Part shown: positions 33,009 through 56,176 of the stretch, in pieces
How positions within the stretch are numbered: position 1 is the first letter of the stretch
Layout: every line of letters starts with the position of its first letter
Assembly (NCBI GenBank): GCA_031291255.1
Contig: JARLJN010000071.1
Span: 7,625-71,624 of the forward strand
Length of the DNA: 64,000 nt
DNA from: Gammaproteobacteria bacterium
Lineage (GTDB): Bacteria > Pseudomonadota > Gammaproteobacteria > DSM-16500
Direction: 5' to 3'
The notes under the pieces: model-generated
What the model saw: the letters and a program-made list of their open reading frames with translations, nothing else
What the model was told of the DNA's origin: nothing
Databases searched by the model: none
Translations under genes and position numbers: made by a program

Positions 33009-33536
33009 ATGTCTAAAAAAGCTATTTTCCTCGACTCCGATGGTGTTTTAAATAAAGCAATCATGAAAGATGGAAATCCTGTTGCGCCCACCACTCTTGC
33101 TGAACTCGAGATTCCAGAAGAAGTTAAACCTGCATTAGATAAATTAAAATCCGCAGGCTATTTATTAATTTGCGTAACAAATAAACCTGATATTGAACGT
33201 GGTTTAATGACGCAAGCTGATGTTGATGCAATTTATCATAAAATACGTTCTGAATTATCTCTTGATGATGTTTTCATTTGTTATAAAGAAAATAGCGCAT
33301 GTTACAAACCAAACCCTGGACTTCTTCTAGCTGCAGCAAAAAAATATAATATAGCTTTAGCTCACAGTTACATGATAGGAGATCGCTGGCGAGATATAGG
33401 CGCAGGGCAAAATGCTGGGTGCAAAACAATTTGGATAGATAGAGGTTATACTGAAAAAAAACCAGAACCACCAGCAGACTACACAGTGCATTCACTTACC
33501 GAAGCCACATTACGTATACTGGGGGAAAGTACCTGA
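33009..33536 (+). CDS. HAD-IIIA phosphatase (GmhB/histidinol-phosphatase-like)
   Basis: Motif I FLDSDGVLN. Motif II VTNKPD. Motif IV GDRWRD. 175 aa. Confidence 0.8.
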   Translation: MSKKAIFLDSDGVLNKAIMKDGNPVAPTTLAELEIPEEVKPALDKLKSAGYLLICVTNKPDIERGLMTQADVDAIYHKIRSELSLDDVFICYKENSACYKPNPGLLLAAAKKYNIALAHSYMIGDRWRDIGAGQNAGCKTIWIDRGYTEKKPEPPADYTVHSLTEATLRILGEST

Positions 33537-34831
33537 TGGCACACAATAAATTAACTGTAGCTGATGAGTTAGAAAAACTTCAACGTGAATCATTCGATTA
33601 TTTTTTACATGAAGTTAATTTAACTAATGGATTAATTTTAGATAAAACTTCAGATAACTGGCCTGCTAGTATAGCCGCGACTGGATTGGCGCTTGCATCT
33701 TATCCTCTTGCTGTTGAGCGTGGTTTTATGTCTCGTACTCAAGCAGTAGAACGCACCCTGAATACCTTACGTTTTTTTTGGAACAGTCCACAAGGACCTG
33801 AACCTGATGCGACTGGCTATAAAGGTTTTTATTATCATTTTCTAGATATGAAAACGGGACGACGTGTGTGGCAATGTGAATTATCTACTATAGATACTGC
33901 ATTTTTATTAGCAGGTATGTTGGCCGCAGCGATTTATTTTGATGCGAGCACTGAAAAAGAAAAAGAAATTCGGACTCTTGCTGATGCACTTTATTGTCGC
34001 GCTGACTGGCAATGGGCACAAAATCAGGGCGATACCGTTACACATGGTTGGAAACCAGAAACTGGATTTTTAAAATATCGTTGGGAAGGTTATGACGAAG
34101 CCATGCTGCTATATATTTTAGGTTTAGGTTCACCTACGCATCCATTGCCCGAAAGCAGTTATACGTCATGGGTTAGCACTTATGAATGGAAACAAATATA
34201 CGGTTACGATTATCTTTATGCGGGATCCTTATTCACTCATCAGTTTTCACATGTTTGGGTCGATTTTCGTGATATTCAAGATGCATTTATGCGCGAAAAA
34301 AACAGTAATTATTTTGAGAACAGTAGACGTGCGACATACATACAACATGAGTATGCTATCAATAATCCGATGGATTTCGTCGGTTATAGTGCATGCTGTT
34401 GGGGACTGACTGCCAGCGATGGTCCTGGTCCTGAGATTCTTAAAATCAATGGAATTGAACGTCAATTCTTTAATTACATCGCTCGTGCTGTGCCCTACGG
34501 CCCTGATGATGGAACAGTTGCACCTTGGGCGGCGGTTGCATCCTTGCCCTTTGCTCCAGAAATTGTTCTGCCTATGATAGACCATTGTATTTATGATCTG
34601 AAACTGAAAGAAGGGAATCGTTATGGATTCAAAGCGACTTTCAATCGGACGTATATCACAAAATCTCACCATCATGGATGGGTATCACCTTGGCATTATG
34701 GGATTAACCAAGGTCCCATTATTTTAATGACTGAAAATTATCGTACAGGCTTGTTGTGGAATATAATGCGTAGATGCCCTTATCTTATTAATGGGCTTAA
34801 ACGTGCGGGTTTTACCGGAGGCTACTTGTAA
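33536..34831 (+). CDS. cytoplasmic (alpha/alpha)6-type glucan-acting protein, GH144/'putative glucoamylase'-like
   Basis: 1-nt overlap (TGATG) with the HAD gene. No signal peptide. The blocks ATGLALASYPLAVERG, DTAFLLAGMLAA and EAMLLYILGLGSPTHPL resemble the PF10091-type domain. That domain is also found inside cyclic glucan synthases and in endo-beta-1,2-glucanases. The family call is from memory. Confidence 0.55.
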   Translation: MAHNKLTVADELEKLQRESFDYFLHEVNLTNGLILDKTSDNWPASIAATGLALASYPLAVERGFMSRTQAVERTLNTLRFFWNSPQGPEPDATGYKGFYYHFLDMKTGRRVWQCELSTIDTAFLLAGMLAAAIYFDASTEKEKEIRTLADALYCRADWQWAQNQGDTVTHGWKPETGFLKYRWEGYDEAMLLYILGLGSPTHPLPESSYTSWVSTYEWKQIYGYDYLYAGSLFTHQFSHVWVDFRDIQDAFMREKNSNYFENSRRATYIQHEYAINNPMDFVGYSACCWGLTASDGPGPEILKINGIERQFFNYIARAVPYGPDDGTVAPWAAVASLPFAPEIVLPMIDHCIYDLKLKEGNRYGFKATFNRTYITKSHHHGWVSPWHYGINQGPIILMTENYRTGLLWNIMRRCPYLINGLKRAGFTGGYL

Positions 34832-43565: not shown

Positions 43566-43602
43566 TGTTTACGTTATCCGGTTTCAACATACAAGGATGA
43601 TT

Positions 43603-44433
43603 ATGAAAAATAAGGATATGGTTATACGCATAGGATTTTTTTGCATTATTTTATTGGTTATTTACGGCATTTTTACACTATGGAATCACAAAAAAATACA
43701 ACTCACGTTGTATGGCAATGTTGATATACGAGATGTAGATTTAGCCTTTCGTGTGAGTGGTCGCTTGATAGAATTAAAAGTCGATGAAGGAGATGATGTC
43801 AGTAAAGGAGAATTAATTGCACGCTTAGATCCTGATCCTTATGAGCGTGAAGTAAAAGCAGGAGAGGCCACAGTAAAGCAACAAAAAGCGGCGCTAGATT
43901 ACGCGCAAACAGTTTATCAACGTGAAAAAGAATTACGTGGGACAGGAGCTTCTTCTGCTGATCATTATCAAGGTGCTCTGTCTGGTTTAAATCAAGCAAA
44001 AGCTAACTTAGATATGACTATCGCGCAGCTTTCACAATCTAACCTACGATTACAAGATACCTATTTATATTCACCTTCAGACGGTTATGTCTTAACACGC
44101 GCAGTTGAACCCGGCACTATGCTGCCTGCGAATGCAACGGTGATTACTGTGTCGCTAGTTAATCCTGTTTGGGTAAGAGCTTACGTGGAAGAAACTGAGT
44201 TGAGCAAAGCAAAACCCGGAACAACCGTTCAAGTTTATGCGGATTCTCTGCCCAATAAATCTTACCAAGGCAAAATTGGCTTTGTGTCTTCAACAGCAGA
44301 ATTTACGCCTAAAACAGTAGAAACAACCAATCTACGGACTGAACTTGTATATAGATTACGAATTGTTGTGCAAGATCCTCATCATGACCTACGCCAAGGA
44401 ATGCCTGTGACAGTCAAAATAGTGAGTGATTAA
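43603..44433 (+). CDS. HlyD-family membrane-fusion protein (YhiI/YbhG-like)
   Basis: AAGGA RBS before the ATG at 43603. N-terminal TM. Lipoyl halves (VDLAFRVSGRLIELKVDEGDDVSKGELIARLD, SPSDGYVLTR) flank a coiled-coil hairpin. Confidence 0.85.
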   Translation: MKNKDMVIRIGFFCIILLVIYGIFTLWNHKKIQLTLYGNVDIRDVDLAFRVSGRLIELKVDEGDDVSKGELIARLDPDPYEREVKAGEATVKQQKAALDYAQTVYQREKELRGTGASSADHYQGALSGLNQAKANLDMTIAQLSQSNLRLQDTYLYSPSDGYVLTRAVEPGTMLPANATVITVSLVNPVWVRAYVEETELSKAKPGTTVQVYADSLPNKSYQGKIGFVSSTAEFTPKTVETTNLRTELVYRLRIVVQDPHHDLRQGMPVTVKIVSD

Positions 44434-47378
44434 TGTCATCAACTACGGTAACTGAATACGCCATTTTACTGGAAGATGTTGTTAAGACATTTCCTGCTGC
44501 TGACATGACAGGACCCGCACTGTCTAAACTCAGTGTTCGCATAAAAAAAGGATGCATCACAGGATTAGTTGGCCCCGATGGAGCAGGCAAAACAACATTG
44601 ATGCGAATCATTGCTGGATTGCTCACAGCGACTGAAGGGCATGTTACTCTGATGAACAATACTGATGAACTAGATCCCGCTGTCAATCTTGATGCTGTGC
44701 GCGCAATTTTAGGTTATATGCCACAGAAATTTGGTCTCTATGAAGATCTGACTGTGATTGAAAATCTAATTCTCTATGCTGATTTACGTGGTGTTTTAAA
44801 TCCAGAGCGTGAAATCGTATTTCAACAATTATTGGATTTTACAGATCTGAATCATTTCACAGCCAGGCCTGCAGGAAAACTTTCTGGCGGTATGAAACAA
44901 AAGTTAGGATTAGCTTGTGCCTTGTTAGGAAATCCCCAAATTCTTTTATTAGATGAACCTAGTGTGGGTGTAGATCCTATTGCAAGACGTGAATTATGGA
45001 AAATGGTAAAAGCACTGCTTGCAAAAGGAATGACTGTTATCTGGAGTACCTCTTATTTAGATGAAGCTGAACTTTGCGATGATGTCTTGTTGATGAATGA
45101 AGGAAAAATTATTTACTCAGGAGAGCCTCGCACTCTCACGGAAAAAGTAACAGGCCGTAGTATTCAGATACGCAATATTCAAGGGAATCATAGATTGGTT
45201 TTGCAACGTGCTTTGCGTACGCAAGAAGTCATGGATGGTGTCATTCAAGGTCGCAATGTACGTCTATTATTGAAAAAGCATAATCAATTTCCTAATCTTG
45301 AATTACTGAATGCGGGTAGCGATGCAGAAATAGTGGAAGTTCCACCGCGATTTGAAGATGCTTTTATCGATATATTAGGTGGCGGACCTGGCGGTGATTC
45401 CACCCTCGCAAACGTGATGAAACCTGTAGAAAAGAATACGTTAGCTTATATCATAGAAGCGGAGTCACTGACCAAAAAATTTAATTCATTTACTGCAACA
45501 GATCATATTAGTTTTAATGTTAAGCGTGGAGAAGTGTTTGGATTATTGGGACCCAATGGCGCAGGTAAGTCTACGACCTTTAAAATGATATGCGGTTTGT
45601 TGACACCCACTTCTGGTTCCGCTCATGTCTTAGGCATAGACATGCATAAATGCCCCGCCAAAGCCCATCAACAAGTAGGGTACATGGCACAAAAATTTTC
45701 GCTTTATACTGATCTCACTGTTTTGCAAAATCTAAAATTTTACTCGGGAATTTATGGTCTAACAGGAGAAGCACAAGCGACTAAAATTGCTGAGATGATT
45801 GAAGCATTTGATCTAACATCATTACTCAATTCCAATACAAGTGAGTTATCGTTAGGGTACAAACAACGATTATCACTTGCTTGTGCAATCATGCATGAAC
45901 CTCCGGTTTTATTTTTAGATGAACCTACTTCAGGTGTAGACCCCATTACCAGAAGAGAGTTTTGGACGCATATCAATGGGTTAGTCGAAAAAGGAGTGAC
46001 TGTGATGGTCACTACTCATTTTATGGATGAAGCAGAATATTGTGATCATGTCGCTTTAGTGTATCAAGGAAAAATAATTGCGGTTGGAACGCCTGATCAA
46101 TTAAAAAAACTCGCGACGGATGAAAAGCATACTGAACCTAGCATGGAAGATGCATTTATTGAGATTATTAAACAACATGACAAAGTTTCAAACGAGCAGA
46201 CTATTTCTCAGAAACCTACGCTCAAAACATCAAAACCAGATTATTTTTTTTCAAAATATAATTCTTTGCGACGTTGGTTTGCATTATCACGCAAAGAATT
46301 TTATCAAATTATACGTGATCCCAGTAGTGTATTGATCGCTTTCATTTTACCCATGTTAATGTTATTTATTTATGGATTCGGAATTAATTTAGATTCCACA
46401 AAAATTCGTATGGGTATTGTATTAGAAGATACAAGTTCTGAAGCGAGACATCTTGCCTTTAGTTTTTCTGCTTCGCCTTATTTAATTATGCTGCCGCAAC
46501 AAACACGAGAAGACGCAAAGAATCAATTGACCGCTGGAAATATAAGAGGATTTATCACTATACAACCTGACTTTTCTAAAAGACTGAAGAGCTTAAATAA
46601 AATGGCTCCCTTGCAAATTGTGACAGATGGATCTGAGCCTAATACAGCTAATTTCGTGACAAATTATGCAATAGGAGCGTGGGGAAAATGGCTGGAATTA
46701 CGTAACATAGAAACGGGACAACCCATTATTAATAGCATTAACATAGAACAACGTTTTTGGTTTAACCCAGATGCCATTAGTCGAAACTACATTGTGCCAG
46801 GCTCTATCGCCATTATTATGACAGTAATAGGAGCGCTGTTAACATCATTGGTAATCGCGCGCGAGTGGGAAAGAGGAACCATGGAAGCATTACTTACCAC
46901 ATCGGTTACACGGTTAGAATTTTTATTTTCTAAATGGGTTCCATACTATTTAGTTGGCATAATGTCTATGACTGTATGCTGGTTGGTTGCTATTACGATA
47001 TTGGGTACTCCATTTCGTGGATCCATTTTATTATTATTTATAGAAACCAGTCTTTTTTTAGGAAGCGCATTAGGTTTGGGTTTATGGCTTTCTACAGCGA
47101 CACGTAATCAATTTAACGCAGCACAAGCTGCATTGAATTTAGCATTTTTGCCTTCTTTGATGTTATCAGGCTTTGTGTATGAAATTAGTAGCATGCCTAA
47201 GATAATACAAGCAGTGACTTATCTTATACCCGCTCGTTATTTCGTATCGTCATTACAAACGCTTTTTTTAGCGGGAAATGTGGGTGAATTATTATTTAAA
47301 GACGGTTTGTTTTTATTTATTTTTGCATTAATACTTTTTGGTATTACAGCAAAATTAACTAAGCGTAGATTGGAATAA
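44433..47378 (+). CDS. fused ABC transporter: two ATPase domains plus an ABC-2 permease (RbbA/YhiH-like)
   Basis: Walker A GPDGAGKTT and GPNGAGKST. Signatures LSGGMKQK and LSLGYKQR. Walker B LLLDEP and LFLDEP. A C-terminal 6-TM ABC-2 domain is present. ATGA-type overlap with the adaptor gene. Confidence 0.9.
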   Translation: MSSTTVTEYAILLEDVVKTFPAADMTGPALSKLSVRIKKGCITGLVGPDGAGKTTLMRIIAGLLTATEGHVTLMNNTDELDPAVNLDAVRAILGYMPQKFGLYEDLTVIENLILYADLRGVLNPEREIVFQQLLDFTDLNHFTARPAGKLSGGMKQKLGLACALLGNPQILLLDEPSVGVDPIARRELWKMVKALLAKGMTVIWSTSYLDEAELCDDVLLMNEGKIIYSGEPRTLTEKVTGRSIQIRNIQGNHRLVLQRALRTQEVMDGVIQGRNVRLLLKKHNQFPNLELLNAGSDAEIVEVPPRFEDAFIDILGGGPGGDSTLANVMKPVEKNTLAYIIEAESLTKKFNSFTATDHISFNVKRGEVFGLLGPNGAGKSTTFKMICGLLTPTSGSAHVLGIDMHKCPAKAHQQVGYMAQKFSLYTDLTVLQNLKFYSGIYGLTGEAQATKIAEMIEAFDLTSLLNSNTSELSLGYKQRLSLACAIMHEPPVLFLDEPTSGVDPITRREFWTHINGLVEKGVTVMVTTHFMDEAEYCDHVALVYQGKIIAVGTPDQLKKLATDEKHTEPSMEDAFIEIIKQHDKVSNEQTISQKPTLKTSKPDYFFSKYNSLRRWFALSRKEFYQIIRDPSSVLIAFILPMLMLFIYGFGINLDSTKIRMGIVLEDTSSEARHLAFSFSASPYLIMLPQQTREDAKNQLTAGNIRGFITIQPDFSKRLKSLNKMAPLQIVTDGSEPNTANFVTNYAIGAWGKWLELRNIETGQPIINSINIEQRFWFNPDAISRNYIVPGSIAIIMTVIGALLTSLVIAREWERGTMEALLTTSVTRLEFLFSKWVPYYLVGIMSMTVCWLVAITILGTPFRGSILLLFIETSLFLGSALGLGLWLSTATRNQFNAAQAALNLAFLPSLMLSGFVYEISSMPKIIQAVTYLIPARYFVSSLQTLFLAGNVGELLFKDGLFLFIFALILFGITAKLTKRRLE

Positions 47379-47387
47379 GGTGATTAA

Positions 47388-48488
47388 ATGTTAAAACGCA
47401 TTTGGGCATTAATACGAAAAGAATTACAAGTGCAATTACATGACAAAGACAGCAGGCGCTTGCTGATTGTTCCTGTAATAATGCAATTGGCCTTATTTCC
47501 TTTTGCTGCGACGCTAGAAGTAAAAAATAGTACCTTAGCGATTTACAATCAAGATTCAGGCCAAAATTCATTTGAATTAATGCAACGGCTTTCAAAAACA
47601 AAAGCATTTCCCACGTTAAAAATTTTACATAACATACACGAAGTTCAAGAAACAATAGACAATCAAAAAGCATTATTAGTGATTAGTATCCCCAGTGACT
47701 TTTCAAGAAAAATTGGAGCAAACAAAACAGCTGCGCTGCAAACCATTATAGATGGCAGACGCTCTAATGCGGGGCAAATTGCAGCAGGTTATGTCCAAGC
47801 CATTGTTGACAACTACAAAACAGATTTGATATCCCATCAAATTTTAATGAAAACAATAGTCGTTAGGAATTGGTTTAATCCTAATTTAGATTACCAATGG
47901 TTTATATTACCTAGTTTAATAGCCATTATCACGACTATAGGCTGTCTGGCAGTCACCGCTATGTCTATTGCCCGTGAGCGAGAGCAGGGCACCTTCGAAC
48001 AGCTTCTAGTATCGCCACTGACCACAGGCTACATTATGTTAGGTAAAACAGTTCCTGCATTATTAATTGCATCAGTTCAAGCAACTATTATTTTACTTGC
48101 AGCGATATGGATATATCGCATTCCATTTCAAGGATCCGTGTTGCTGCTCTATATTACTCTTTTATGTTATGGCATTTCATTGTCTGGTATAGGATTGTTA
48201 ATCTCATCCCTTAGCTCTACACAACAACAGGCTTTCTTAGGTATATTTGCATTTATGATGCCGTCAGTCATGTTATCAGGATATGTTTCACCCATAGAAA
48301 ATATTCCTGAACCATTGCGTAGCCTCACTTGGTTTAACCCCATTCGACATTTTATTGTAATCAGCAAGGGTATTTATTTAAAAGGATTTGATTTTGCCCT
48401 CGTTTGGCATGATCTGTGGCCTTTGATCATTATTGCTTTTCTGACTATGTCATCTGCTTATGTTATTTTTAAAAAACAAGCAGGGTGA
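47388..48488 (+). CDS. ABC-2 type permease (YhhJ/YbhR-like)
   Basis: 366 aa. An N-terminal TM is followed by a large periplasmic loop and five C-terminal TMs. Motif EREQGTFEQLLVSP. Confidence 0.85.
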   Translation: MLKRIWALIRKELQVQLHDKDSRRLLIVPVIMQLALFPFAATLEVKNSTLAIYNQDSGQNSFELMQRLSKTKAFPTLKILHNIHEVQETIDNQKALLVISIPSDFSRKIGANKTAALQTIIDGRRSNAGQIAAGYVQAIVDNYKTDLISHQILMKTIVVRNWFNPNLDYQWFILPSLIAIITTIGCLAVTAMSIAREREQGTFEQLLVSPLTTGYIMLGKTVPALLIASVQATIILLAAIWIYRIPFQGSVLLLYITLLCYGISLSGIGLLISSLSSTQQQAFLGIFAFMMPSVMLSGYVSPIENIPEPLRSLTWFNPIRHFIVISKGIYLKGFDFALVWHDLWPLIIIAFLTMSSAYVIFKKQAG

Positions 48489-48514
48489 GGTACAAAAAAA
48501 TTAAAGGACTAAAA

Positions 48515-49939
48515 ATGAAAATTGATATTTTTAAATTTATCATGACTGCTATGTTAAGCAGCATGTTGCTATCTGCTTGCATGCTAGGCCCTAATTATCA
48601 CCAGCCTAAAGAAGATATGCCTACACACTTTATTGATACTAAAAAAACATCCATTAAAAATTCCCAAAATAAAAATTGGTGGAAGTCAGTATCCGATCCT
48701 ATTTTAATATCTTTAATTAATAAAGCATTAGAACAAAATTTAGATATACAACAAGCGCAAGCCAAGATTCATCAATCGCGTGCAGAGCTGAATATCACAT
48801 CTGCGGATTTATATCCTGAGCTTGATGCAAGTGGTAAATTGGTTCGCGATCATTTAAGTGCGAATAGCGAACTTATTTCTGCTATCCCAACCCAGATACC
48901 ATTAACATATACCGATACAAATATACGATTTGATGCATCATGGGAATTGGATTTTTTCGGGCATACGCGTCGCTCAATAGAAGCATCTAAAGCAAATTTA
49001 GAACGCTCCATTGAAAATACAAATGATATTGCTCTCACAGTCACAGCAGAAGTTGCTAAAGATTATATTCAATATCGTACGTATCAACAGCGTATCATAA
49101 TTGCAGAAGAGACCATTGCATCTTATCAAAAAACTGAAAAATTAGTTAAACTGCAATTCCATGCAGGGTATGCAACTTCAATTGATGTGCAGCGTTTAGA
49201 AAGCCAAGTGTTTTCCGCACAAGCAGCTGTCCCACCTTTACAAGCAGAAGCCAGAGCATCGCTTGCAGCCTTAGCAGTAATGATAGGCGAGAGCCCCGAA
49301 TCACTTTATGAACGCATGAAAAAATATTCTCATATTCCAGTGATCAAATCAGATCATGTTGCTTCTTTACCCTCTGATTTATTACAAAGACGTCCTGATA
49401 TCCGAATGGCAGATCGTGATCTCGCTGCCGCCACTGCCAATATTGGCGTTGCGATCGCAAATCAATTTCCACGTTTTAAACTAGTGGGTGATGTAGGATA
49501 TGACAGTGTTTTTTCAGGCAGTTTATTTCATGCAGCAAGTCGTTATTGGACTTATGGGCCACAAATTTACTTTCCTATTTTTCAAGGTGGGCGATTAAAG
49601 AATGCTGTTAAAGAAAGTAAGGCAGCGCGTGATGCCATATTTGCCAATTATAAAAAAACCATTTTACAAGCATTAGCCGATGTTGAATCATCTATGATAC
49701 GTTTTAATAAAGAACGCAAACGAAATCAGCGTTTGTTATCCGCTTATAAAAAAATAAAATCCACCGTTAAATTGATAAATCTTCAGTATGTGGATGGCAA
49801 AACATCTTTGCTAGACGTGCTAGATGTTGAGAGACAAGCGAATGTTTCACATGATGAATATGTGCAATCGCTAGGTTTAGTTTCAATAAATCAGGTTGCT
49901 CTTTATAAAGCATTGGGTGGTGGGATTTATCAGAATTAG
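48515..49939 (+). CDS. NodT-family outer-membrane efflux lipoprotein
   Basis: Lipobox LLSAC followed by MLGPNYHQP. Two OEP repeats. The ATG at 48515 follows AAAGGA. Confidence 0.88.
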   Translation: MKIDIFKFIMTAMLSSMLLSACMLGPNYHQPKEDMPTHFIDTKKTSIKNSQNKNWWKSVSDPILISLINKALEQNLDIQQAQAKIHQSRAELNITSADLYPELDASGKLVRDHLSANSELISAIPTQIPLTYTDTNIRFDASWELDFFGHTRRSIEASKANLERSIENTNDIALTVTAEVAKDYIQYRTYQQRIIIAEETIASYQKTEKLVKLQFHAGYATSIDVQRLESQVFSAQAAVPPLQAEARASLAALAVMIGESPESLYERMKKYSHIPVIKSDHVASLPSDLLQRRPDIRMADRDLAAATANIGVAIANQFPRFKLVGDVGYDSVFSGSLFHAASRYWTYGPQIYFPIFQGGRLKNAVKESKAARDAIFANYKKTILQALADVESSMIRFNKERKRNQRLLSAYKKIKSTVKLINLQYVDGKTSLLDVLDVERQANVSHDEYVQSLGLVSINQVALYKALGGGIYQN

Positions 49940-50273
49940 ATGCGTTACAGATAGGGTTCCAACTGCATTGATGGACTCGGTTCGAGTTCTAACAATTAAA
50001 ATGTGATATTATTAGTCGTTTTTACGTTAGTTACTGTTAATGCTTTTTCTGAAAATGCACACAGCAAAAATTCAAACTAAAATTGCGATGGATGACCCCT
50101 CTAACTTATGGATTTTTAAGAGATAGCTCATTGATTGACAACTCTACAACAGTTTGTGCAAATATCAACACAAATGCAGGCCATTTTGTTTAATAAATAG
50201 AATAAAAAAGCATTAAATGTTAAAATGAACGTATATACCAGTATGATTGATAAGGCAATTCAAGGAGGGGAAA

Positions 50274-51722
50274 GTGCTGTTATATTTCATTTTAATAGTA
50301 CTGACAATTACCTTCGGGTACTTATTTTTCATTCGCAATAATGAATTAAAAGAATTACAAAAATATGCTGCTACTCTTGAAAATGATCTTCTCCATCAGC
50401 AAATTAAATTTGAGGAAGTCTCTCAACAAAGTGGATTAAATTCACAAATATCTTTCGACGTTACGGCAGATGCTTTGACAGGATTACCCTCTCCGCAAGT
50501 ATTTGAAGATAGAGCATTACAAACATTTCACTTAAGCAAACGTTTCGGTAAGATTTTTGGTATTTTATCTTTAGAAGTAAGCGATATTGATGAAATCAAA
50601 GATAAGTTGGGTGAAGAATCTACTAATAAATTATTTAAAGAAATAACGAGTCGATTGAAAGGTTCTATACGATTAATTGATACTATCTCTCGTCAAAATA
50701 ATACGTTTATTTTGTTATTAGCACAATTAACTGAGCCAGAAGCTGCATCTTACGTTGCAAATCGCATTTTAAGTGTAATAGATAAGCCTTTTATTATTGA
50801 TAATAATACTTTTTCAATAAAGATGAATATTGGTGTTTCTATCTATCCTATTGATGGCGATAATGTGAGTACATTAATGGAGAATGCACATAAAGCATTA
50901 GAAAAATCTAAGAGTACCACAGCTCATTCATTTTATTTTCATAATGAAGATATTCAAGATAAAAGCAATCGTGTGAGTCAGATTGCTAGTATTTTTCATA
51001 AAGCAGATTTTTTAAATCAAATAGTTGTATATTGCATACCTCAAGTTAATTCAACTAATGATAAAGTTGAAGGTGTAAAAGTTTTACCTTATTTGCAAGA
51101 TTCAGAATTAGGTTTATTAGCCTTTGATGAATTCAATAAAATTTCAGAAAGAGAAAATAAAAATCTTTTAATTTTTGAATATGTGCTACACAAGGCCATT
51201 ATTCAGTTTAAGCATTGGCAGGTAGAAGGGATTTCGCCGCAACGTCTCGCGATTAATGTAAGTGGTAAACTCATTCAAGATGAAACCTTTATTTCGAAAT
51301 TGATCTATTTATTGGAAGAAACAGGATTCCAACCTAATTTTTTAGCATTAGAAATAGCGGCTGATAATTTTGCTGAAAATGCAACTTCATTACAGAATGC
51401 TTTTTTGAAAATTTCCGATTTAGGTGTTCAAACATCTATTGGAATTTTTTCATTAGGACATTTAGTTTTGCAAAAAGTCACTCAGTTACCGATTAACTAT
51501 TTAAAAGTAGATGATCGATTGATAAGTAGTCTTACGACTTACACTAATAATGAGAATACATTAAGTATGTTAATGGAATTGTCTAAAACGATGGGCACTA
51601 AAATTATCGCTGAAGGTGTGGATGATGAAAAACAAAAAGTAATATTGCAAAAAATTGGTTTTGAAGTCATGGAAGGAAAATTATTTGGAATCCCCAAGCC
51701 TATAGAATCATTCATGAAATAA
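50274..51722 (+). CDS. membrane-anchored degenerate GGDEF-EAL protein (probable c-di-GMP receptor, not an enzyme)
   Basis: The GTG at 50274 follows AAGGAGG. Single N-terminal TM. The GGDEF-domain fold starts at DALTGLP, but the active site reads SRQNNTF in place of RxGGDEF. RLID sits at the canonical RxxD I-site spacing. The EAL domain has VKVL for EAL, EIAA for EITE and GIFSLG for DDFGTG. Confidence 0.8.
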   Translation: MLLYFILIVLTITFGYLFFIRNNELKELQKYAATLENDLLHQQIKFEEVSQQSGLNSQISFDVTADALTGLPSPQVFEDRALQTFHLSKRFGKIFGILSLEVSDIDEIKDKLGEESTNKLFKEITSRLKGSIRLIDTISRQNNTFILLLAQLTEPEAASYVANRILSVIDKPFIIDNNTFSIKMNIGVSIYPIDGDNVSTLMENAHKALEKSKSTTAHSFYFHNEDIQDKSNRVSQIASIFHKADFLNQIVVYCIPQVNSTNDKVEGVKVLPYLQDSELGLLAFDEFNKISERENKNLLIFEYVLHKAIIQFKHWQVEGISPQRLAINVSGKLIQDETFISKLIYLLEETGFQPNFLALEIAADNFAENATSLQNAFLKISDLGVQTSIGIFSLGHLVLQKVTQLPINYLKVDDRLISSLTTYTNNENTLSMLMELSKTMGTKIIAEGVDDEKQKVILQKIGFEVMEGKLFGIPKPIESFMK

Positions 51723-53903
51723 TTAAAACCCACTTTGCTCAATTAATAATTTCTTTATTTTATATATCACTCTGTATGCATATGAATGTGCCTCTGTTTT
51801 TAACACAACGTCGCCTCTTAGAATTTGATTAATAATAGTAGGTTGTTGAGTCGTCAGTAATACACGGTACACTATATCAACCGGCACAAATTTACCTTCT
51901 TCTGTCGTATAAGTCGCAATCTCTCCACCTAGCTCACTCACATTGAAACAAGGTGTTTCTGCGTAGACATTAGCATTTTTATCTTGTTTTAATTCTTGAG
52001 ACAAATTGCAATTAAGTTCATTTGAGTTGAGTACTTCGATTGAAGAAACAGTAACAGGAATCTTTGAGTAACTCAGTTGGGTAGGGTAGAAATAGCCGGT
52101 TAATTTATTTTGAATAAGATGCCTATCGATTTGGTGCACATAAGCTTCTACTATAAGTTCATTAGGTTGAATCACATCGCCTAATAATTCGTTTTTCATT
52201 ACAACATTACCTTGCTTTAGATCTGACGCCAGCTCCTTAATAACACCATCAAATGGGACTTTTAATGTAAGTGTTTGAGCTAATGCATAAAGTGTATCAT
52301 ATTTCGCTTTTTCTCTATTAATTTCTGATAACAGTACGTTTTTTTGGTGTGAAAATTTTTCATTCACAGAGGCTCTTCGTAATTCCGCAATGGATTTCAT
52401 ATAATCAAGGTAAACCTTTTCTAAATCATTATGAATTATTTGTGATTTTATAATGATAATAGGTTGCTCTGCTTTAACTAGGCTACCTGGTTTTGGCGGA
52501 ATATTTGCAATAATGCCTTCTTCAGGTGCAATTAAAAACCTGTGTGAGTAACTGATGGTGGCAGGAAGAGTAATTGTTTGCTTAACGGGTGTGATAAAAA
52601 TAAGTAATAGTATTGCAGCTGTTGATGTGGTGATTATCGTGTTTACATTCCAACTGAATTTTTCTTTTAATTTAATCCAAGTATGTATTTCTGTAACAAA
52701 GGGTCCTAACATAAAATAATAAAGTTCAACTACAAATAACATAATACCAATTATCTTAACGAAGAAATGGTAAACCAATACCGCAATTCCTGCATACAAT
52801 ACGAATCGATATATCCAAGTTGTTAATGAATAAATGACTAATATATTATGCATATGTGAACTAAATTTTTCGGGTGGTGGATCTTGCCAGCCGAATAACC
52901 AACGACGAATTTGCCAGCGTGTTAAAGCAAATGCACGTGATTGCAGATTTGGCATCTTTAAAAAATCTGCAAAAACATAATATCCATCAAAGCGCATGAA
53001 TGGGCTTACATTAATGAGAACGCTTGCAACCCAATTAACAGCAACTGCGACGTAACAAATTGCTTGTAAAGTCGTATTGTGAGTATTGCACCATATGAGT
53101 GCTGCTATAATAGTTACGTAAGTTTCGACCCACATTCCTGCGAGTGCTATACGCATTCGTGCTTTACTATTCAAGGACCAACTTAATGTAGTATCAGTAT
53201 AAAGTACGGGCCAAAATACAAGAAAAGCAACGCCTAATGAAGGCACTGGAACGCCATACCTTTTGCACATGTAGGCATGACCTAATTCATGAAATAATTT
53301 TGTTACCACAAAAACAACGAGATAGATAAACAAACCCTGTAATGTAAAAATGCTAGAGAATGTGTGAGAAAATGTTTCCCATTGCATGCTAATTTGATAT
53401 AGCGCTATGATTCCTAAGAGAGTCATCACTATTAATGTTGTACGGCTAAATAAAAAATCACCTATTACTTTTGTTTTATCTAATAACTTATCCGGATGGA
53501 ATAGAGGTATTCTGAAAAATAAATAATAATTAATTAACCAATGAAAAGGATTATCATTTTTAAATATTTTTTGTTCTTTTGCACTTTCGTGTATTTGGTA
53601 ACCACTTTGTTTGAATAGAAAATTATTTTTTAAAAAATTAACCATGCTTTCTATATCTTGCATGTCCACATGCAGCGTGGTTTCCTGATTAACCGATTCA
53701 ATGATAGCTTCTGCTGTTCCAAGATCCCATCGGCTCAATAATTCATATTCGACCCAACCTATGATAAAAAATTTATTTCTGCCAGCATCATGAATCATCC
53801 ATTGGGGTTTTCCTTCTAAATCATAATCGCTAAAGGATATATGAATGCCACGTCTTAATAGGGGTAATTTAGTAGAAGAAGAGCTATTTGAGTTGTCTGA
53901 CAT
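51723..53903 (-). CDS. site-2-protease (M50) family polytopic membrane protein fused to a C-terminal membrane-fusion-protein-like periplasmic domain
   Basis: HELGH at 53277-53291. NVSPFMRFDG (the S2P NxxPxxxxDG motif) at 52983-53012. Multiple TMs. C-terminal lipoyl/hairpin/barrel pattern (GSLVKAEQPIIIIKS ... coiled coil ... KVPFDGVIKELASDLKQGNVV). The cytoplasmic N-terminal ~100 aa have a PqqD/RRE-like look (tentative). Confidence 0.8.
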   Translation of the reverse strand: MSDNSNSSSSTKLPLLRRGIHISFSDYDLEGKPQWMIHDAGRNKFFIIGWVEYELLSRWDLGTAEAIIESVNQETTLHVDMQDIESMVNFLKNNFLFKQSGYQIHESAKEQKIFKNDNPFHWLINYYLFFRIPLFHPDKLLDKTKVIGDFLFSRTTLIVMTLLGIIALYQISMQWETFSHTFSSIFTLQGLFIYLVVFVVTKLFHELGHAYMCKRYGVPVPSLGVAFLVFWPVLYTDTTLSWSLNSKARMRIALAGMWVETYVTIIAALIWCNTHNTTLQAICYVAVAVNWVASVLINVSPFMRFDGYYVFADFLKMPNLQSRAFALTRWQIRRWLFGWQDPPPEKFSSHMHNILVIYSLTTWIYRFVLYAGIAVLVYHFFVKIIGIMLFVVELYYFMLGPFVTEIHTWIKLKEKFSWNVNTIITTSTAAILLLIFITPVKQTITLPATISYSHRFLIAPEEGIIANIPPKPGSLVKAEQPIIIIKSQIIHNDLEKVYLDYMKSIAELRRASVNEKFSHQKNVLLSEINREKAKYDTLYALAQTLTLKVPFDGVIKELASDLKQGNVVMKNELLGDVIQPNELIVEAYVHQIDRHLIQNKLTGYFYPTQLSYSKIPVTVSSIEVLNSNELNCNLSQELKQDKNANVYAETPCFNVSELGGEIATYTTEEGKFVPVDIVYRVLLTTQQPTIINQILRGDVVLKTEAHSYAYRVIYKIKKLLIEQSGF

Positions 53904-53919
53904 AACGCTCCTTTACCTA

Positions 53920-55278
53920 TTAAATTCCAATGACTTGACGTACTGATTGTAAAGGCCGTCTTAAGAGATAATAGATAAAAGGTACATAATTACCATATAC
54001 CTTCACTGTGCCTTGGGCGCCAATTTGTGGGCGGTCATCCGCATTAACAAATGACGCATTTAATTGATAAGCGAGTATTCTGTTTGGCATCTGTTTGGCA
54101 TTATATCCAAGCGTAGTAATTTTTATCGGAATAGGATTAAGTTCGCCATAGAGAAATAAATCCCCATTTGCTCCCTTTTCTAATTTTATAATATCCGATA
54201 CGGGAATGGTAATTTTTACTTCTACTTCATATGGATCTGCAATAATAAGGATGCGTTCACCTGTTCGTGCAGGTTGGCCTATCCAGTTTTCTTTGTTATC
54301 AAAAATAACTATCCCATTGACTGGGCTCTTGATATCAGCTTGAGAGAGTAGGGCATTAGTATAATTAAGATGTGCTTTATCAATGTTAATTTGAGCTTGT
54401 AAAATAGGTATTTCAGCATCACTTTCTTTGTGTATGAAACCTTCCTGAATGACAGCGCGTAATTTTTCCTGAGTTAATAAAAGATCTTTTTCACTGACCT
54501 CTGAGCTAGCTTGTAATTCAGTTTTGTCTATACTAAATAAGAGTTGTCCAATTTTTACTGGATTCCCTGGATCAACATAAATTGCTTTAATAATTCCTTG
54601 CATAGGAGAATTGATTAATACTGGAGATTTGGGGATAACCGTTCCTGTTCCTAATACGGATAAGTGAACTGGAAAAAATAAAACTGTCAGTGTCACTATG
54701 CCTGCACCAATAACGTAAGGTTTATCTTTTAATTTTTGCCATGATGGTTTGATAGCTGATTTTGTCAGTGTATTCCAAGTATATTGATAACTTGAAATTA
54801 ACCATCCTAGCATTTTAATTTCTGAATCTGAAAATGGTGTTTCTTTGAAAAAGATTAATCCACCGGTAATCTCATTTGTTTTGTTTAGCAGTGGACACCA
54901 TAAAAAATAGTGAGGCAGTGTTTCAGGCCAGTTATCTGTAATATCACTCAGCTCAGTTTCTGATTGACTGATTAAATGAATTTTTTTCGAATTGACAGCA
55001 TCATCATCGCAAATTTTGTTGATAACATATTTCAGCCATTGATTGGTTGGTGCATGTACATCTATTTCTGCAGTACCTGACTGCATAATAAGATTCGTTC
55101 CGATAAATTCTTTTTTTTGCCACAGATAGGCTGTGTGATATGAAATTAATCTATGGGTTTCATTCGTGCTAAAAAAAGCAAATTCTCTAAGATTACTTAA
55201 TTTGCGTATTTCATCATCTAAGACAAGTAGAGTTGCTAAACCTTCAATTTGTGATTGAATTTTATCATTACTTGGCAT
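53920..55278 (-). CDS. membrane-fusion protein with an N-terminal cytoplasmic GAF-like domain
   Basis: About 175 aa of cytoplasmic region with a GAF-like pattern (...ITGGLIFFKETPFSDSEIKMLGWLISSY). Then one TM, then an HlyD pattern (SPMQGIIKAIYVDPGNPVKIGQLLFSID ... SPVNGIVIF). Overlaps the upstream adaptor gene by 11 nt. Confidence 0.8.
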   Translation of the reverse strand: MPSNDKIQSQIEGLATLLVLDDEIRKLSNLREFAFFSTNETHRLISYHTAYLWQKKEFIGTNLIMQSGTAEIDVHAPTNQWLKYVINKICDDDAVNSKKIHLISQSETELSDITDNWPETLPHYFLWCPLLNKTNEITGGLIFFKETPFSDSEIKMLGWLISSYQYTWNTLTKSAIKPSWQKLKDKPYVIGAGIVTLTVLFFPVHLSVLGTGTVIPKSPVLINSPMQGIIKAIYVDPGNPVKIGQLLFSIDKTELQASSEVSEKDLLLTQEKLRAVIQEGFIHKESDAEIPILQAQINIDKAHLNYTNALLSQADIKSPVNGIVIFDNKENWIGQPARTGERILIIADPYEVEVKITIPVSDIIKLEKGANGDLFLYGELNPIPIKITTLGYNAKQMPNRILAYQLNASFVNADDRPQIGAQGTVKVYGNYVPFIYYLLRRPLQSVRQVIGI

Positions 55279-56176
55279 GGTTTTGCCCTGCCGGTTTATT
55301 TTTTTGATCTGGGTTGTCAGGGAAAATGGCTTGTCCGCTCATTCCGGGTAATAAGCTAGCATCAGGATGAGGGATGCTGCCAGTAATTTTAATGGTTTGG
55401 CTGATGCTTTCAATCTGTGGATCAATTCGTATCACGTTTACTGCGACATTTTTATTTGTTTCATTAATATGTACGTAAAAAAGTGATCCTATTTTTAACC
55501 ATTTTAACCAGTTAGATGGGATTTGAATTTCAAATTCTAAATTTTCAGTATTCATTATTTTTAAGAGTGGATCACCAGGTTTTACTGTTTCTAATGGGTG
55601 AACCATTATTTCTGCGACTGATCCGCTAAATGGAGCTTTAATAATGCATTTTTCAACTATAGCATTAAATTTATCGACTTCGGCTTTTGCTATGGCTGCA
55701 TCTGAATGTGCTTTGACTAATTCAAGTTCGCTGATTGATCCATATGATTTTAACTTTATGGCACTTTCTTCGGCTAAAGTAGCAGTTTTGGATTGAGCTT
55801 GTGCTTTTTCAAGTTCTGCTTGCTGCAGCCTGCAATCTAGTTTGACTAATACGTCTCCCTTTTTAAATTGGCTGCCTTCTCGAACATTGAGTTCAGCTAT
55901 GCTCGCTGCTGTTTCACTAGAGAAAGTCGCGATATCGCTAGGTTGTATCACGACATATTCAGGTGTACCTGAAGAGGGGGTTGGAGATGTGTTTATTGAC
56001 ATTGATAGTGAAGCGGGTAAGTGGTCTAAGGTCGTTTCCGCATATCCAATTTGAGCATAAGAAAACACCAAAAATGAAACAAAATTTAGCACAACCAGGG
56101 ATTTAAGATTATTTTTTGGATAATCTGCGTGTTGTAAATTGGGGCTAGTATCATCTGATAGTGACATACCGTGCAT
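55268..56176 (-). CDS. membrane-fusion protein (short-hairpin periplasmic adaptor)
   Basis: N-terminal TM. Lipoyl halves (ASIAELNVREGSQFKKGDVLVKLD and APFSGSVAEIMVHPLETVKPGDPLLKI). Beta-barrel tail. Confidence 0.85.
   Translation of the reverse strand: MHGMSLSDDTSPNLQHADYPKNNLKSLVVLNFVSFLVFSYAQIGYAETTLDHLPASLSMSINTSPTPSSGTPEYVVIQPSDIATFSSETAASIAELNVREGSQFKKGDVLVKLDCRLQQAELEKAQAQSKTATLAEESAIKLKSYGSISELELVKAHSDAAIAKAEVDKFNAIVEKCIIKAPFSGSVAEIMVHPLETVKPGDPLLKIMNTENLEFEIQIPSNWLKWLKIGSLFYVHINETNKNVAVNVIRIDPQIESISQTIKITGSIPHPDASLLPGMSGQAIFPDNPDQKNKPAGQNHAK

What the first reader, a model, noticed from the sequence alone, without database searches (positions are those of the whole stretch)
51723..53903. 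Chimeric S2P: possible peptide-recognition N-domain, M50 core and HlyD-like periplasmic C-domain in one polypeptide
The cytoplasmic N-terminal ~100 aa (QWMIHDAGRNKFFIIGWVEYELLSRW...TLHVDMQDIESMVNFLKNNFLF) look like a PqqD/RiPP-recognition-element winged-helix domain. That would imply binding of a leader peptide. The M50 core keeps both zinc-ligand motifs. Residues from about 440 to 726 follow the lipoyl / alpha-hairpin / lipoyl / barrel order of membrane-fusion proteins. A protease that could both dock to TolC and recognise a peptide leader would combine the maturation and export steps of a bacteriocin- or RiPP-like pathway. No obvious precursor gene is visible nearby.
Basis: inference. Interest (0 to 1): 0.75.

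Follow-up and report, generated by a model that had tools for sequence, protein, structure and literature searches.

The report
Protease-adaptor fusion beside a giant adhesin gene
The gene does encode a three-part membrane protein (peptide-recognition-like domain, zinc protease, TolC-docking arm), but it sits in a widespread, unnamed gene set next to a giant adhesin-like protein rather than a small peptide, and it may be the core of an undescribed export route that has no ATP-driven pump.

Summary
ORF 51723-53903(-) encodes 726 aa with three parts: a predicted RRE-like domain (residues ~16-100), a 7-TM M50 core with invariant HExxH and NxxPxxxxDG, and a periplasmic MFP (HlyD-like) domain. The inferred topology is N-in, C-out.

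The RiPP/bacteriocin reading is only partly right. No small ORF is conserved near the gene. The gene is the last of a four-gene operon: OMF, MFP, GAF-like-MFP, RRE-M50-MFP. That operon recurs from Legionellales to Nitrospira and Desulfobacterota. In 49 of 52 loci with at least 3 kb of flank on both sides it lies beside a giant adhesin-like gene.

In the window that giant gene starts at 58548(+) and runs off the end (≥1817 aa; DUF4347, PA14, cadherin-like). The giants vary internally but share an N-terminal LEPR-XLL motif (here ALEPRMVYDAS). Relatives whose C-termini are visible also share a G[KR]xSLSEQL element there.

No ABC, RND or MFS transporter is conserved nearby.

Best reading (inferred): this fusion is the inner-membrane recognition and processing subunit of a dedicated, type-I-like apparatus for giant LEPR-XLL proteins. 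I found no paper, NCBIfam model or RefSeq product name describing it. Interest is high, but the mechanism is untested.

The parts
51723..53903 (-). Whole ORF, 726 aa: RRE-like domain + M50 intramembrane metalloprotease + MFP (HlyD-like) domain. It is the last gene of the operon.
53604..53858 (-). Residues ~16-100: predicted three-strand, three-helix winged-helix domain of RRE/PqqD type, cytoplasmic.
   Evidence: AF2 pLDDT ~90-95. Foldseek top 5 are TbiB1 and CteB RRE domains. Pfam PqqD matches only 2 of 48 members, best E 0.002. hhalign against a PqqD profile was negative.
52584..53456 (-). Residues 150-440: M50/S2P membrane core with seven predicted TM helices and a re-entrant beta-hairpin at 223-236.
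   Evidence: Pfam PF02163. phmmer hit to mjS2P 3b4r, E 0.0026. Helices from AF2. Positive-inside count.
53277..53291 (-). HELGH (residues 205-209), the zinc-binding and catalytic motif.
   Evidence: invariant in 75 and in 142 homologues
52983..53012 (-). NVSPFMRFDG (residues 298-307), the NxxPxxxxDG motif that carries the third zinc ligand, D306.
51726..52583 (-). Residues 441-726: periplasmic MFP domain in the order lipoyl half, alpha-hairpin (488-543), lipoyl half, beta-barrel, C-terminal helix.
   Evidence: HlyD_3 and HlyD_D23. DSSP of the model. Foldseek matches to MacA, AcrA, MexA and EmrA, E 4e-11 to 1e-8.
53920..55278 (-). Second MFP, 452 aa: cytoplasmic GAF-like N-domain (~1-185), one TM, then a HlyD-type periplasmic domain. 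It is present beside the fusion gene in most loci.
   Evidence: GAF (PF01590) matched 8 of 30 orthologous N-domains, best E 2e-6; the window copy itself gave no hit.
55268..56176 (-). Third MFP, 302 aa, RND_mfp type, with an N-terminal membrane anchor or signal.
   Evidence: (TIGR01730, 116 bits, above cutoff)
56265..58238 (-). TolC-type outer membrane factor (lipobox LTAC, OEP repeats) with a C-terminal SPOR domain. It is the first gene of the operon.
58548..64000 (+). Start of a giant adhesin-like protein (at least 1817 aa, runs off the window), transcribed divergently from the operon. Proposed substrate.
   Evidence: The orthologue in L082 is 4952 aa in the same arrangement. Association across loci.
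58605..58646 (+). ALEPRMVYDASVAV, an N-terminal LEPR-XLL-type motif preceded by a Lys/Arg-rich stretch. Proposed recognition or cleavage signal.
   Evidence: NF012209 gives 12.5 bits (below the cutoff of 17) here and 22.7 bits in L004. The motif is present in every giant whose true N-terminus is visible.
58926..59420 (+). DUF4347 domain of the giant protein.
   Evidence: PF14252, E 4e-51
50247..51722 (+). GGDEF-EAL protein whose gene abuts the 3' end of the fusion gene. The adjacency is kept only in the Legionellales-type relatives. Possible c-di-GMP control.

Best explanation
The ORF encodes the inner-membrane recognition and processing subunit of a dedicated, envelope-spanning, type-I-like apparatus. 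The substrate is the neighbouring giant LEPR-XLL/DUF4347 adhesin-like protein, not a small peptide.

**Shown**
- The protein has a cytoplasmic RRE-like domain, a 7-TM M50 core with intact zinc and catalytic motifs, and a periplasmic MFP domain.
- The helix order from the model plus the positive-inside rule put the zinc motifs near the cytoplasmic face.
- It is co-operonic with two more MFPs and a TolC-type OMF.
- The cassette is almost always next to a giant protein. These giants vary in their passenger domains but carry conserved N-terminal (LEPR) and C-terminal (G[KR]xSLSEQL) elements.
- No ABC, RND or MFS gene is conserved in the neighbourhood.

**Inferred**
- The RRE-like domain binds one of the conserved terminal elements. 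The N-terminal LEPR leader is the likelier one and would bind by strand addition, as lasso-peptide and other RiPP leaders do.
- The M50 site cleaves that leader at the cytoplasmic membrane face.
- The three MFP-type proteins assemble a periplasmic tube onto the OMF, through which the unfolded giant protein leaves the cell.
- The energy source is unknown. Candidates are the proton-motive force, extracellular folding acting as a ratchet, or an unlinked ATPase.
- The GAF-like domain, and in Legionellales the adjacent GGDEF-EAL protein, would gate the system.
For: - **Architecture and motifs:**
- **RRE-like fold:** pLDDT of about 90-95. All five top PDB hits are RRE domains, three of them TbiB1 chains solved with a bound leader.
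- **MFP fold:**
- **Topology:** seven helices. Lys/Arg residues cluster on the predicted cytoplasmic loops and helix ends (7 in loop 300-348 alone), against 0, 0 and 1 in the three periplasmic loops.
- **Cassette conservation:** the OMF, MFP, GAF-MFP, RRE-M50-MFP order recurs in most of the 80 loci fetched from different phyla.
- **Giant neighbour:** a giant or LEPR ORF is adjacent in 48 loci by script, plus L031 by inspection, out of the 52 loci that have a giant ORF or at least 3 kb of flank on both sides.
- **N-terminal motif:** every giant whose true N-terminus is visible carries [LV]E[PQSA]R[ILMF]x[FY]D. It matches NF012209, LEPR-XLL.
- **C-terminal element:** found in 32 of 39 visible C-termini, against 2.1% of interior windows, at a fixed 18-40 residues from the end.
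- **Variable passengers:** beta-propeller, cadherin-like, Big_9, DUF11 and NIDO domains. No RTX repeat was found in four complete examples.
- **No transporter:** only 10 of 80 loci hold any ABC domain in the flanks, at scattered positions, and none holds an RND.
- **Same layout in a close relative:** a 4952-aa DUF4347/PA14 protein sits in the same arrangement.
- **Precedent:** the M50 protease EpeP is thought to both cleave and export its peptide (PMC10885120).
Against: - No experiment exists, and no complex model of the RRE with either motif could be run.
- The RRE assignment rests on a predicted fold with modest Foldseek E-values (8e-3 to 0.13). Sequence-level tests were weak or negative.
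- No known M50 protease translocates a protein, and no energy source is visible. An ATPase encoded elsewhere cannot be excluded.
- Gene adjacency does not show which terminus is recognised, or that cleavage occurs.
- Three loci with ample flanks (L032, L035, L065) show no giant gene.
- The window's own LEPR match is below the NCBIfam cutoff, and its giant gene's C-terminus lies outside the window.
Confidence: 0.55

Rival explanations
1. Tether-and-release. The giant protein is exported C-terminus first by a type I route whose ABC component is encoded elsewhere or is not needed. Its N-terminal LEPR segment stays held by the cytoplasmic RRE-like domain, which anchors the adhesin across the envelope. 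The M50 site then cuts the anchor on a signal (GAF domain, c-di-GMP) to release the adhesin. This would be functionally analogous to LapG/LapD control of LapA.
For: - The giants have a conserved C-terminal element at a fixed distance from the end, as type I signals do.
- A GAF-like sensor domain sits on the partner MFP.
- A GGDEF-EAL gene is adjacent in the Legionellales clade.
- The protease site faces the cytoplasm, where the N-terminus would remain.
Against: - No ABC gene is conserved near 80 loci.
- No RTX repeats were found in four complete giants.
- The GGDEF-EAL neighbour is restricted to one clade.
- This overlaps the best explanation in everything except the direction of export and the timing of cleavage.
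Confidence: 0.25
2. One reading: a combined maturation protease and exporter for a small bacteriocin or RiPP precursor encoded nearby or elsewhere.
For: - The N-domain has an RRE-like fold.
- NCBIfam's best hit over residues 43-395 is the daptide RiPP M50 protease.
- M50 proteases act in epipeptide, pearlin and daptide pathways (PMC10885120).
Against: - No small ORF family spans more than 3 closely related loci of 81 sequences searched.
- No RiPP tailoring enzyme appears among the conserved neighbours.
- The daptide model scores 131.7 bits against a cutoff of 300.
- The one conserved neighbour outside the cassette is a giant protein with conserved termini.
Confidence: 0.07
3. A signalling site-2 protease or a generic efflux accessory. 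The M50 domain would carry out regulated intramembrane proteolysis of a membrane regulator, with the MFP domain acting as an envelope sensor, and the link to the giant gene would be only regulatory or coincidental.
For: The best-studied S2P proteins (RseP, SpoIVFB) act in signalling (established knowledge). There is no direct evidence here.
Against: - No sigma or anti-sigma pair is conserved nearby.
- The cassette with OMF and two MFPs is kept across phyla.
- The giant-gene adjacency, 49 of 52, is far beyond coincidence.
Confidence: 0.05

Closest known systems
Peptidase-containing ABC transporters (PCATs; the bacteriocin and microcin type I exporters such as CvaB/CvaA/TolC)
   Same: - A cytoplasm-facing protease module is built into the exporter.
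- It would recognise an N-terminal leader and cut it while handing the cargo to an MFP-OMF conduit.
   Different: - The protease here is an M50 intramembrane zinc enzyme with an RRE-like domain, not a C39 cysteine peptidase.
- It is fused to the MFP, not to an ABC transporter.
- No ABC gene is conserved nearby.
- The cargo is thousands of residues long, not a peptide.
Classical type I secretion of giant adhesins (LapA-LapBCE with LapG/LapD; SiiE-SiiCDF; MpIBP)
   Same: - The giant repetitive adhesin gene lies next to MFP and OMF genes.
- The substrates have conserved terminal elements.
- A possible c-di-GMP link exists in one clade.
   Different: - There is no ABC ATPase.
- There are three MFP-type proteins instead of one.
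- No RTX repeats were found in the four complete substrates checked.
- The substrates carry an N-terminal LEPR-XLL motif.
- The protease is intramembrane and cytoplasm-facing, not periplasmic like LapG.
- The 2021 Chem Rev review lists only ABC, RND and MFS inner-membrane partners (PMC8277102).
RiPP-pathway M50 proteases (EpeP/YydH of epipeptides, TglG/TmoG of pearlins, and the daptide protease family NF041824)
   Same: - The M50 core has the same motifs.
- The daptide model aligns from residue 43 to residue 395, so it also covers part of the N-domain.
- EpeP is proposed to both cleave and export (PMC10885120).
   Different: - The score is far below the daptide cutoff (131.7 against 300).
- Those enzymes, as described in PMC10885120, belong to small-peptide gene clusters; the cassette here has an MFP fusion, an OMF gene and a giant neighbour instead.
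Lasso-peptide B1 proteins (TbiB1, PDB 5v1v and 5v1u) and other RRE/PqqD-like domains
   Same: - They are the best structural matches to residues ~16-100 (prob 1.0, target TM-score 0.67).
- In lasso pathways the RRE delivers the leader to a partner protease.
- The lasso leader motif YxxPxL (my own knowledge) loosely resembles LEPR[ILMF].
   Different: - There is no significant sequence similarity.
- The domain is fused to a membrane metalloprotease rather than working with a cytosolic transglutaminase-like cysteine protease.
- Binding has not been tested.
Sorting-signal and dedicated-protease pairs (PEP-CTERM/exosortase, GlyGly-CTERM/rhombosortase)
   Same: A short conserved terminal motif on otherwise unrelated proteins co-occurs with one dedicated membrane protease. 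This is the logic by which those systems were first recognised (my own knowledge).
   Different: - The motif here is N-terminal, with a second C-terminal element.
- The protease family is different.
- An MFP-OMF conduit is attached.

Membership tests
Peptidase family M50 / site-2 protease | HExxH zinc motif within a transmembrane helix | tested here: met
   HELGH is at 205-209, inside predicted helix 188-215. It is invariant in 75 and in 142 homologues.
Peptidase family M50 / site-2 protease | Second motif NxxPxxxxDG, supplying the third zinc ligand | tested here: met
   NVSPFMRFDG is at 298-307. N298 and D306 are invariant.
Peptidase family M50 / site-2 protease | Match to the family profile above the curated cutoff, and similarity to a solved S2P | tested here: met
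   PF02163 scores 29.6 bits against a cutoff of 27.2, a narrow pass. phmmer to mjS2P 3b4r gives E 0.0026.
Peptidase family M50 / site-2 protease | Proteolytic activity on a membrane-proximal substrate | not testable with these tools
   Needs biochemistry.
RRE / PqqD-like peptide-recognition domain | Winged-helix fold: three-stranded sheet followed by three helices | tested here: met
   In the AF2 model the strands are 20-27, 33-39 and 44-48, and the helices 50-57, 64-74 and 81-93, with pLDDT of about 90-95. The Foldseek top 5 are all RRE domains. This is a predicted structure only.
RRE / PqqD-like peptide-recognition domain | Sequence-profile similarity to PqqD (PF05402) or to solved RREs | tested here: inconclusive
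   PF05402 matched 2 of 48 members, best E 0.0021. The profile found no PDB sequence at E<=10. hhalign against a shallow PqqD profile gave prob 0.4.
RRE / PqqD-like peptide-recognition domain | Binds a conserved leader motif of its substrate | not testable with these tools
   The candidate ligands are the LEPR motif and the C-terminal element.
Membrane fusion protein / periplasmic adaptor (HlyD, MacA, AcrA type) | Lipoyl, alpha-hairpin, lipoyl, beta-barrel order, located in the periplasm | tested here: met
   The periplasmic location follows from the 7-TM N-in topology.
Membrane fusion protein / periplasmic adaptor (HlyD, MacA, AcrA type) | Partner outer membrane factor encoded with it | tested here: met
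   The OEP-family gene at 56265-58238 is in the same operon and recurs in loci from several phyla.
Membrane fusion protein / periplasmic adaptor (HlyD, MacA, AcrA type) | Partner energised inner-membrane transporter (ABC, RND or MFS) | tested here: not met
   None is in the operon. Only 10 of 80 loci show any ABC domain in up to 10 kb of flank, at scattered positions, and none shows an RND. An unlinked partner cannot be excluded.
Type I secretion system | ABC transporter + MFP + OMF, with a substrate that carries an uncleaved C-terminal signal, often with RTX repeats | tested here: not met
   MFP and OMF are present, but the ABC transporter is absent. No RTX repeat was found in four complete neighbouring giants. 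A different conserved C-terminal element is present.
Daptide biosynthesis intramembrane metalloprotease (NF041824) | Score above the equivalog cutoff | tested here: not met
   131.7 bits against a cutoff of 300. It is related but not a member.
LEPR-XLL domain proteins (NF012209), for the neighbouring giant ORF | N-terminal LEPR-type motif on a very large protein | tested here: inconclusive
   The window copy scores 12.5 bits, below the cutoff of 17, although ALEPRMVYDAS is plain to see. The L004 copy scores 22.7 bits, and two others score 11-15.

The most novel reading that the evidence does not exclude
The five-gene module is a previously unrecognised protein-secretion pathway of diderm bacteria. 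The module comprises the giant LEPR-XLL protein, OMF, MFP, GAF-MFP and RRE-M50-MFP. In this pathway an intramembrane M50 protease fused to a periplasmic adaptor would replace the ABC transporter of type I secretion. It would recognise an N-terminal leader through an RRE-like domain, remove the leader, and feed multi-thousand-residue adhesins into an MFP-OMF tube without a dedicated ATPase.
Probability: 0.3. Interest if true: 0.92.

Novelty: new variant of a known kind. Interest (0 to 1): 0.78.

Why it matters
- **A possible fourth kind of inner-membrane partner.** Tripartite envelope systems are described with only three kinds of inner-membrane partner: ABC, RND and MFS. An M50-protease-based partner carrying a RiPP-style recognition domain would be a fourth. 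It would raise the question of how a very large protein crosses the inner membrane without a visible ATPase.
- **A candidate function for unnamed families.** This gives the LEPR-XLL N-terminal motif and DUF4347 giant proteins a candidate sorting and processing machine. It also gives a function to a very large protein family. That family has 2,057 clusters at 50% identity with E<=1e-30, occurs in at least 594 species, and is currently annotated only as a 'HlyD family efflux transporter periplasmic adaptor subunit'.
- **RRE domains beyond peptides.** It would extend RRE domains from small-peptide natural products to protein secretion.
- **Directly testable.** Culturable carriers include Azospirillum, Marinomonas, Pseudomonas, Methylomonas and Phytobacter.

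Tried and rejected
- **Small precursor search.** I collected ORFs of 25-110 aa lying outside larger ORFs in 80 loci plus the window and compared them all against all. No family spanned more than 3 closely related loci. The small-precursor idea is rejected.
- **Other conserved neighbours.** Clustering all ORFs of at least 90 aa gave only the four cassette genes, the giant proteins, and antisense artefacts of high-GC genomes. The minor clusters were a mechanosensitive channel, a small ABC ATPase and a response regulator, each in 4-6 loci.
- **ABC/RND scan of the flanks.** 10 of 80 loci had a hit, at scattered positions.
- **Sequence-level RRE tests.**
  - The N-domain profile against PDB sequences found nothing.
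  - Pfam PqqD matched only 2 of 48 members.
  - hhalign against a PqqD profile built from Klebsiella and Pantoea sequences was negative. That profile is shallow, with members at least 73% identical.
- **GAF-MFP N-domain.** Its profile against the PDB returned only chance-level nucleoporin and BAR hits.
- **DUF4347.** phmmer against PDB sequences was uninformative.
- **Promoter and terminator scan of the operon.** There were fewer promoter-like sites than in shuffled sequence, so it was uninformative.
- **Rfam on the whole window.** No family matched.
- **Literature.** Eight searches found no paper on this architecture or module. The terms covered LEPR-XLL, DUF4347, M50 with HlyD, RRE with M50, site-2 protease with adaptor, and others. 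The 'M50' hits in the tripartite-pump reviews were false positives: residue M507, and DOI strings.
- **The 2864-aa ORF at 34971-43565.** I checked it as a possible second substrate. It is a GH94 cyclic-glucan-synthase-like enzyme and is unrelated.
Full report
**1. The observation**

An ATG-to-stop ORF of 726 aa lies exactly at 51723-53903 on the minus strand.
- Pfam gives Peptidase_M50 over residues 194-382 (29.6 bits, cutoff 27.2) and HlyD_3 over 546-622.
- NCBIfam's best hit is the daptide RiPP intramembrane metalloprotease model NF041824. It covers residues 43-395 but scores far below its cutoff (131.7 against 300). It shows that a sequence-related N-terminal extension on an M50 core also occurs in a curated RiPP protease family.
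- HELGH (205-209) and NVSPFMRFDG (298-307) are present. H205, E206, H209, N298 and D306 are invariant in 75 close homologues. They are also invariant in 142 representatives of 36-60% identity that HMMER found without motif pre-selection.

**2. Folds and topology**

AlphaFold2 with a 75-sequence alignment gave a full-length model of mean pLDDT 81 and a separate model of residues 1-148.

*N-domain.* Residues ~16-100 form three strands followed by three helices at pLDDT of about 90-95.
- Foldseek against the PDB put five RRE domains on top. Three are TbiB1 chains solved with a bound lasso leader peptide (5v1v, 5v1u; E 8e-3 to 1.5e-2, prob 1.0, target TM-score ~0.67). Two are the N-domain of the sactipeptide enzyme CteB (5wgg, 5why). 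Everything after them is noise.
- At sequence level the support is thin. PqqD (PF05402) matched only 2 of 48 family members. A profile search of PDB sequences found nothing. hhalign against a shallow PqqD profile was negative.
- I therefore call the domain RRE-like on predicted fold only.

*C-domain.* Residues ~440-726 match MacA, AcrA, MexA and EmrA at E 4e-11 to 1e-8 over about 300 columns. The order is lipoyl, hairpin, lipoyl, barrel.

*Topology.*
- The model has seven long membrane helices (154-173, 188-215, 246-273, 277-299, 349-379, 384-411, 420-437) and a hairpin at 223-236.
- With the N-terminus inside, Lys/Arg residues concentrate on the cytoplasmic loops and helix ends. The three periplasmic loops hold 0, 0 and 1.
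No dedicated topology predictor was available.

**3. Context changes the interpretation**

*The operon.* The ORF is the last gene of a four-gene minus-strand operon:
- a TolC-type OMF lipoprotein with a SPOR domain (56265-58238);
- a 302-aa MFP (55268-56176);
- a 452-aa MFP (53920-55278);
- the fusion gene.

The 452-aa MFP has a cytoplasmic N-domain that is GAF-like in orthologues: PF01590 matched 8 of 30, best E 2e-6, but the window copy itself gave no hit.

*Spread.* A scan of one genome per species found at least 594 genomes with a full-length relative. In the 80 loci fetched, the order OMF, MFP, GAF-MFP, fusion recurs in Legionellales, Marinomonas, Pseudomonas, Azospirillum, Burkholderiales, Methylomonas, Nitrospira, Desulfobacterota and Geobacteraceae.

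*No energised transporter.* Clustering of all flanking ORFs found no other conserved family. Only 10 of 80 loci hold any ABC domain in up to 10 kb of flank, at scattered positions, and none holds an RND.

*No small precursor.* No small ORF is conserved either.

**4. The conserved neighbour is a giant protein**

*In the window.* No ORF above 85 aa was listed beyond 58.3 kb because a single frame stays open from 58533 to the window end.
- From the ATG at 58548 it encodes at least 1817 aa with DUF4347 (E 4e-51), PA14 and cadherin-like or Ig domains.
- It is transcribed divergently from the OMF gene.
- A relative at 58% identity shows the same layout with a 4952-aa protein.

*Across the 80 loci.*
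- A giant adhesin-like ORF, or a truncated ORF with the same N-terminus, adjoins the cassette in 48 loci by script, plus L031 by inspection. That is 49 of the 52 loci that have a giant ORF or at least 3 kb of flank on both sides. The other 28 loci had less than 3 kb on one side.
- The giant gene usually lies just upstream of the OMF gene. In some loci it lies between the two MFP genes or downstream of the fusion gene.
- RefSeq annotates one such neighbourhood with generic names only: 'DUF4347 domain-containing protein', 'TolC family protein', and three 'adaptor subunit' genes.

**5. The giants look like cargo with address labels**

- **Variable passengers.** The passenger domains differ: beta-propeller, cadherin-like/Big_9, DUF11, NIDO, PA14. 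No RTX repeat was found in four complete examples.
- **N-terminal element.** Every giant whose true N-terminus is visible has a Lys/Arg-rich stretch followed by [LV]E[PQSA]R[ILMF]x[FY]D[GA]. In the window it reads KQALEPRMVYDAS.
  - This is NCBIfam's LEPR-XLL domain, NF012209.
  - It scores 22.7 bits in L004 and 12.5 bits in the window, which is below the cutoff of 17.
  - The stretch has no hydrophobic core of the Sec type.
- **C-terminal element.** 32 of 39 visible C-termini carry G[KR]xS[LF]SEQ[LF] at 18-40 residues from the end, against 2.1% of interior windows. The remaining seven show looser variants.
- The C-terminus of the window's own giant gene lies outside the window.

**6. Mechanism**

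*Shown.* The domain architecture, the topology, the operon, the conserved giant neighbour with conserved termini, and the absence of a conserved energised transporter.

*Inferred.*
- The cytoplasmic RRE-like domain binds one of the terminal elements. I favour the N-terminal one because RREs bind leaders by strand addition, and the top structural match is a leader-bound RRE.
- The cytoplasm-facing M50 site removes the leader.
- The three MFP-type proteins and the OMF form the exit conduit.
- The energy source is unknown.

*Main rival.* Tether-and-release. Export would run C-terminus first, the LEPR end would be held by the RRE, and regulated M50 cleavage would release the adhesin. The C-terminal element, the GAF domain, and the GGDEF-EAL gene that stays adjacent in the Legionellales clade suit this model.

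*Other rivals.* The small-peptide RiPP model and a signalling S2P role have little support.

**7. Comparison with what is known**

- **PCAT bacteriocin exporters.** The system resembles them in coupling a leader protease to an exporter.
- **Giant-adhesin type I systems.** It resembles them in cargo and in having MFP and OMF parts.
- **Type I membership.** It fails that membership test because no ABC transporter is present. The 2021 review of tripartite systems lists only ABC, RND and MFS inner-membrane partners (PMC8277102). Its apparent 'M50' hits are false positives.
- **RiPP M50 proteases.** EpeP, TglG and the daptide protease share the core. EpeP is proposed to both cleave and export (PMC10885120).
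- **Literature and curation.** Eight full-text searches found no description of the fusion, the cassette, or its link to LEPR-XLL/DUF4347 proteins. NCBIfam has no dedicated model. The library omits most subscription journals, so prior description cannot be ruled out.

**8. Verdict**

- The protein family is large: 11,075 clusters at 50% identity with E<=1e-3, and 2,057 with E<=1e-30. Nearly all of the top 150 are ~700-730 aa fusions.
- As far as I could establish, the family is functionally unnamed.
- I rate it a new variant of a known kind: a tripartite, type-I-like system with an RRE-M50 protease in place of the pump.
- I give about a 0.3 chance that it is a distinct ATPase-independent secretion pathway.
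- Interest 0.78.

Noticed in passing
Loci L004-L079 (C-termini of the giant ORFs); not visible in the window: Giant proteins next to the cassette share a C-terminal element, G[KR]xS[LF]SEQ[LF]xxxG, followed by an amphipathic 'ALLxxL' stretch. It lies 18-40 residues from the end in 32 of 39 cases, against 2.1% of interior windows. I could not match it to any named signal.
   Followed up: partly
window 58926-59420 (+): The DUF4347 domain reads '...ILSHGSSGS...' and, about 45 residues later, '...ILLYGCDVAQG...'. This His-Gly and Cys arrangement is reminiscent of the catalytic dyad of caspase/CHAT-type proteases, so the domain could be self-processing. PDB sequence search was uninformative. No structure was predicted.
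   Followed up: partly
window 56265-58238 (-), residues 574-648: The TolC-type outer membrane factor carries a C-terminal SPOR (peptidoglycan-binding) domain, an unusual fusion. It appears only in the Legionellales-type relatives (L001, L003, L082). Other phyla have OMFs of about 490-540 aa without it.
   Followed up: partly
window 50247-51722 (+); L001, L002, L082, L083: A GGDEF-EAL gene abuts the 3' end of the fusion gene. It is convergent here, with no spacer, and co-directional in L001 and L082. The adjacency is kept within this clade only and hints at c-di-GMP control, as in Lap adhesin systems.
   Followed up: partly
window 53920-55278 (-), residues 1-185: The cytoplasmic N-domain of the 452-aa MFP is GAF-like in 8 of 30 orthologues (best E 2e-6), though the window copy gives no Pfam hit. 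A sensor domain on an MFP is uncommon.
   Followed up: partly
window 53460-53600 (-), residues ~101-148 of the fusion: The linker between the RRE-like domain and the first TM holds a strongly conserved motif, YYLFFRIPLxHPDKFL (Y127, L128, F130 and P133 invariant). It includes a predicted short strand at 131-135 that could pair with the membrane hairpin at 223-236.
   Followed up: no
window 34971-43565 (+) and 33536-34831 (+): A 2864-aa GH94-type protein resembling cyclic beta-1,2-glucan synthase, preceded by a glucoamylase-family gene. Both are unrelated to the finding.
   Followed up: partly
window 43552-49939 (+): A complete, separate efflux operon lies between the glucan synthase gene and the GGDEF-EAL gene. 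It comprises a HlyD-type adaptor, a fused double-ATPase ABC protein (981 aa), an ABC-2 permease and an OMF lipoprotein, and is YbhGFSR-like. It is not conserved next to the cassette outside this genome, so it is not the missing pump.
   Followed up: partly
window 6261-8771 (-), 8802-11168 (-), 21988-25143 (+), 28027-30369 (-): Two P-type cation ATPases, a phosphoketolase (XFP) and an AcrB-type RND pump. The region 6-10 kb has a higher GC content (0.46-0.48) than the rest of the window (~0.31-0.44). No Rfam family was found anywhere in the window.
   Followed up: no
L032, L035, L065: Three loci with at least 3 kb of flank on both sides show the fusion gene and the GAF-MFP gene but no OMF, no small MFP and no giant gene nearby. 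They may be split or degenerate versions of the system.
   Followed up: no
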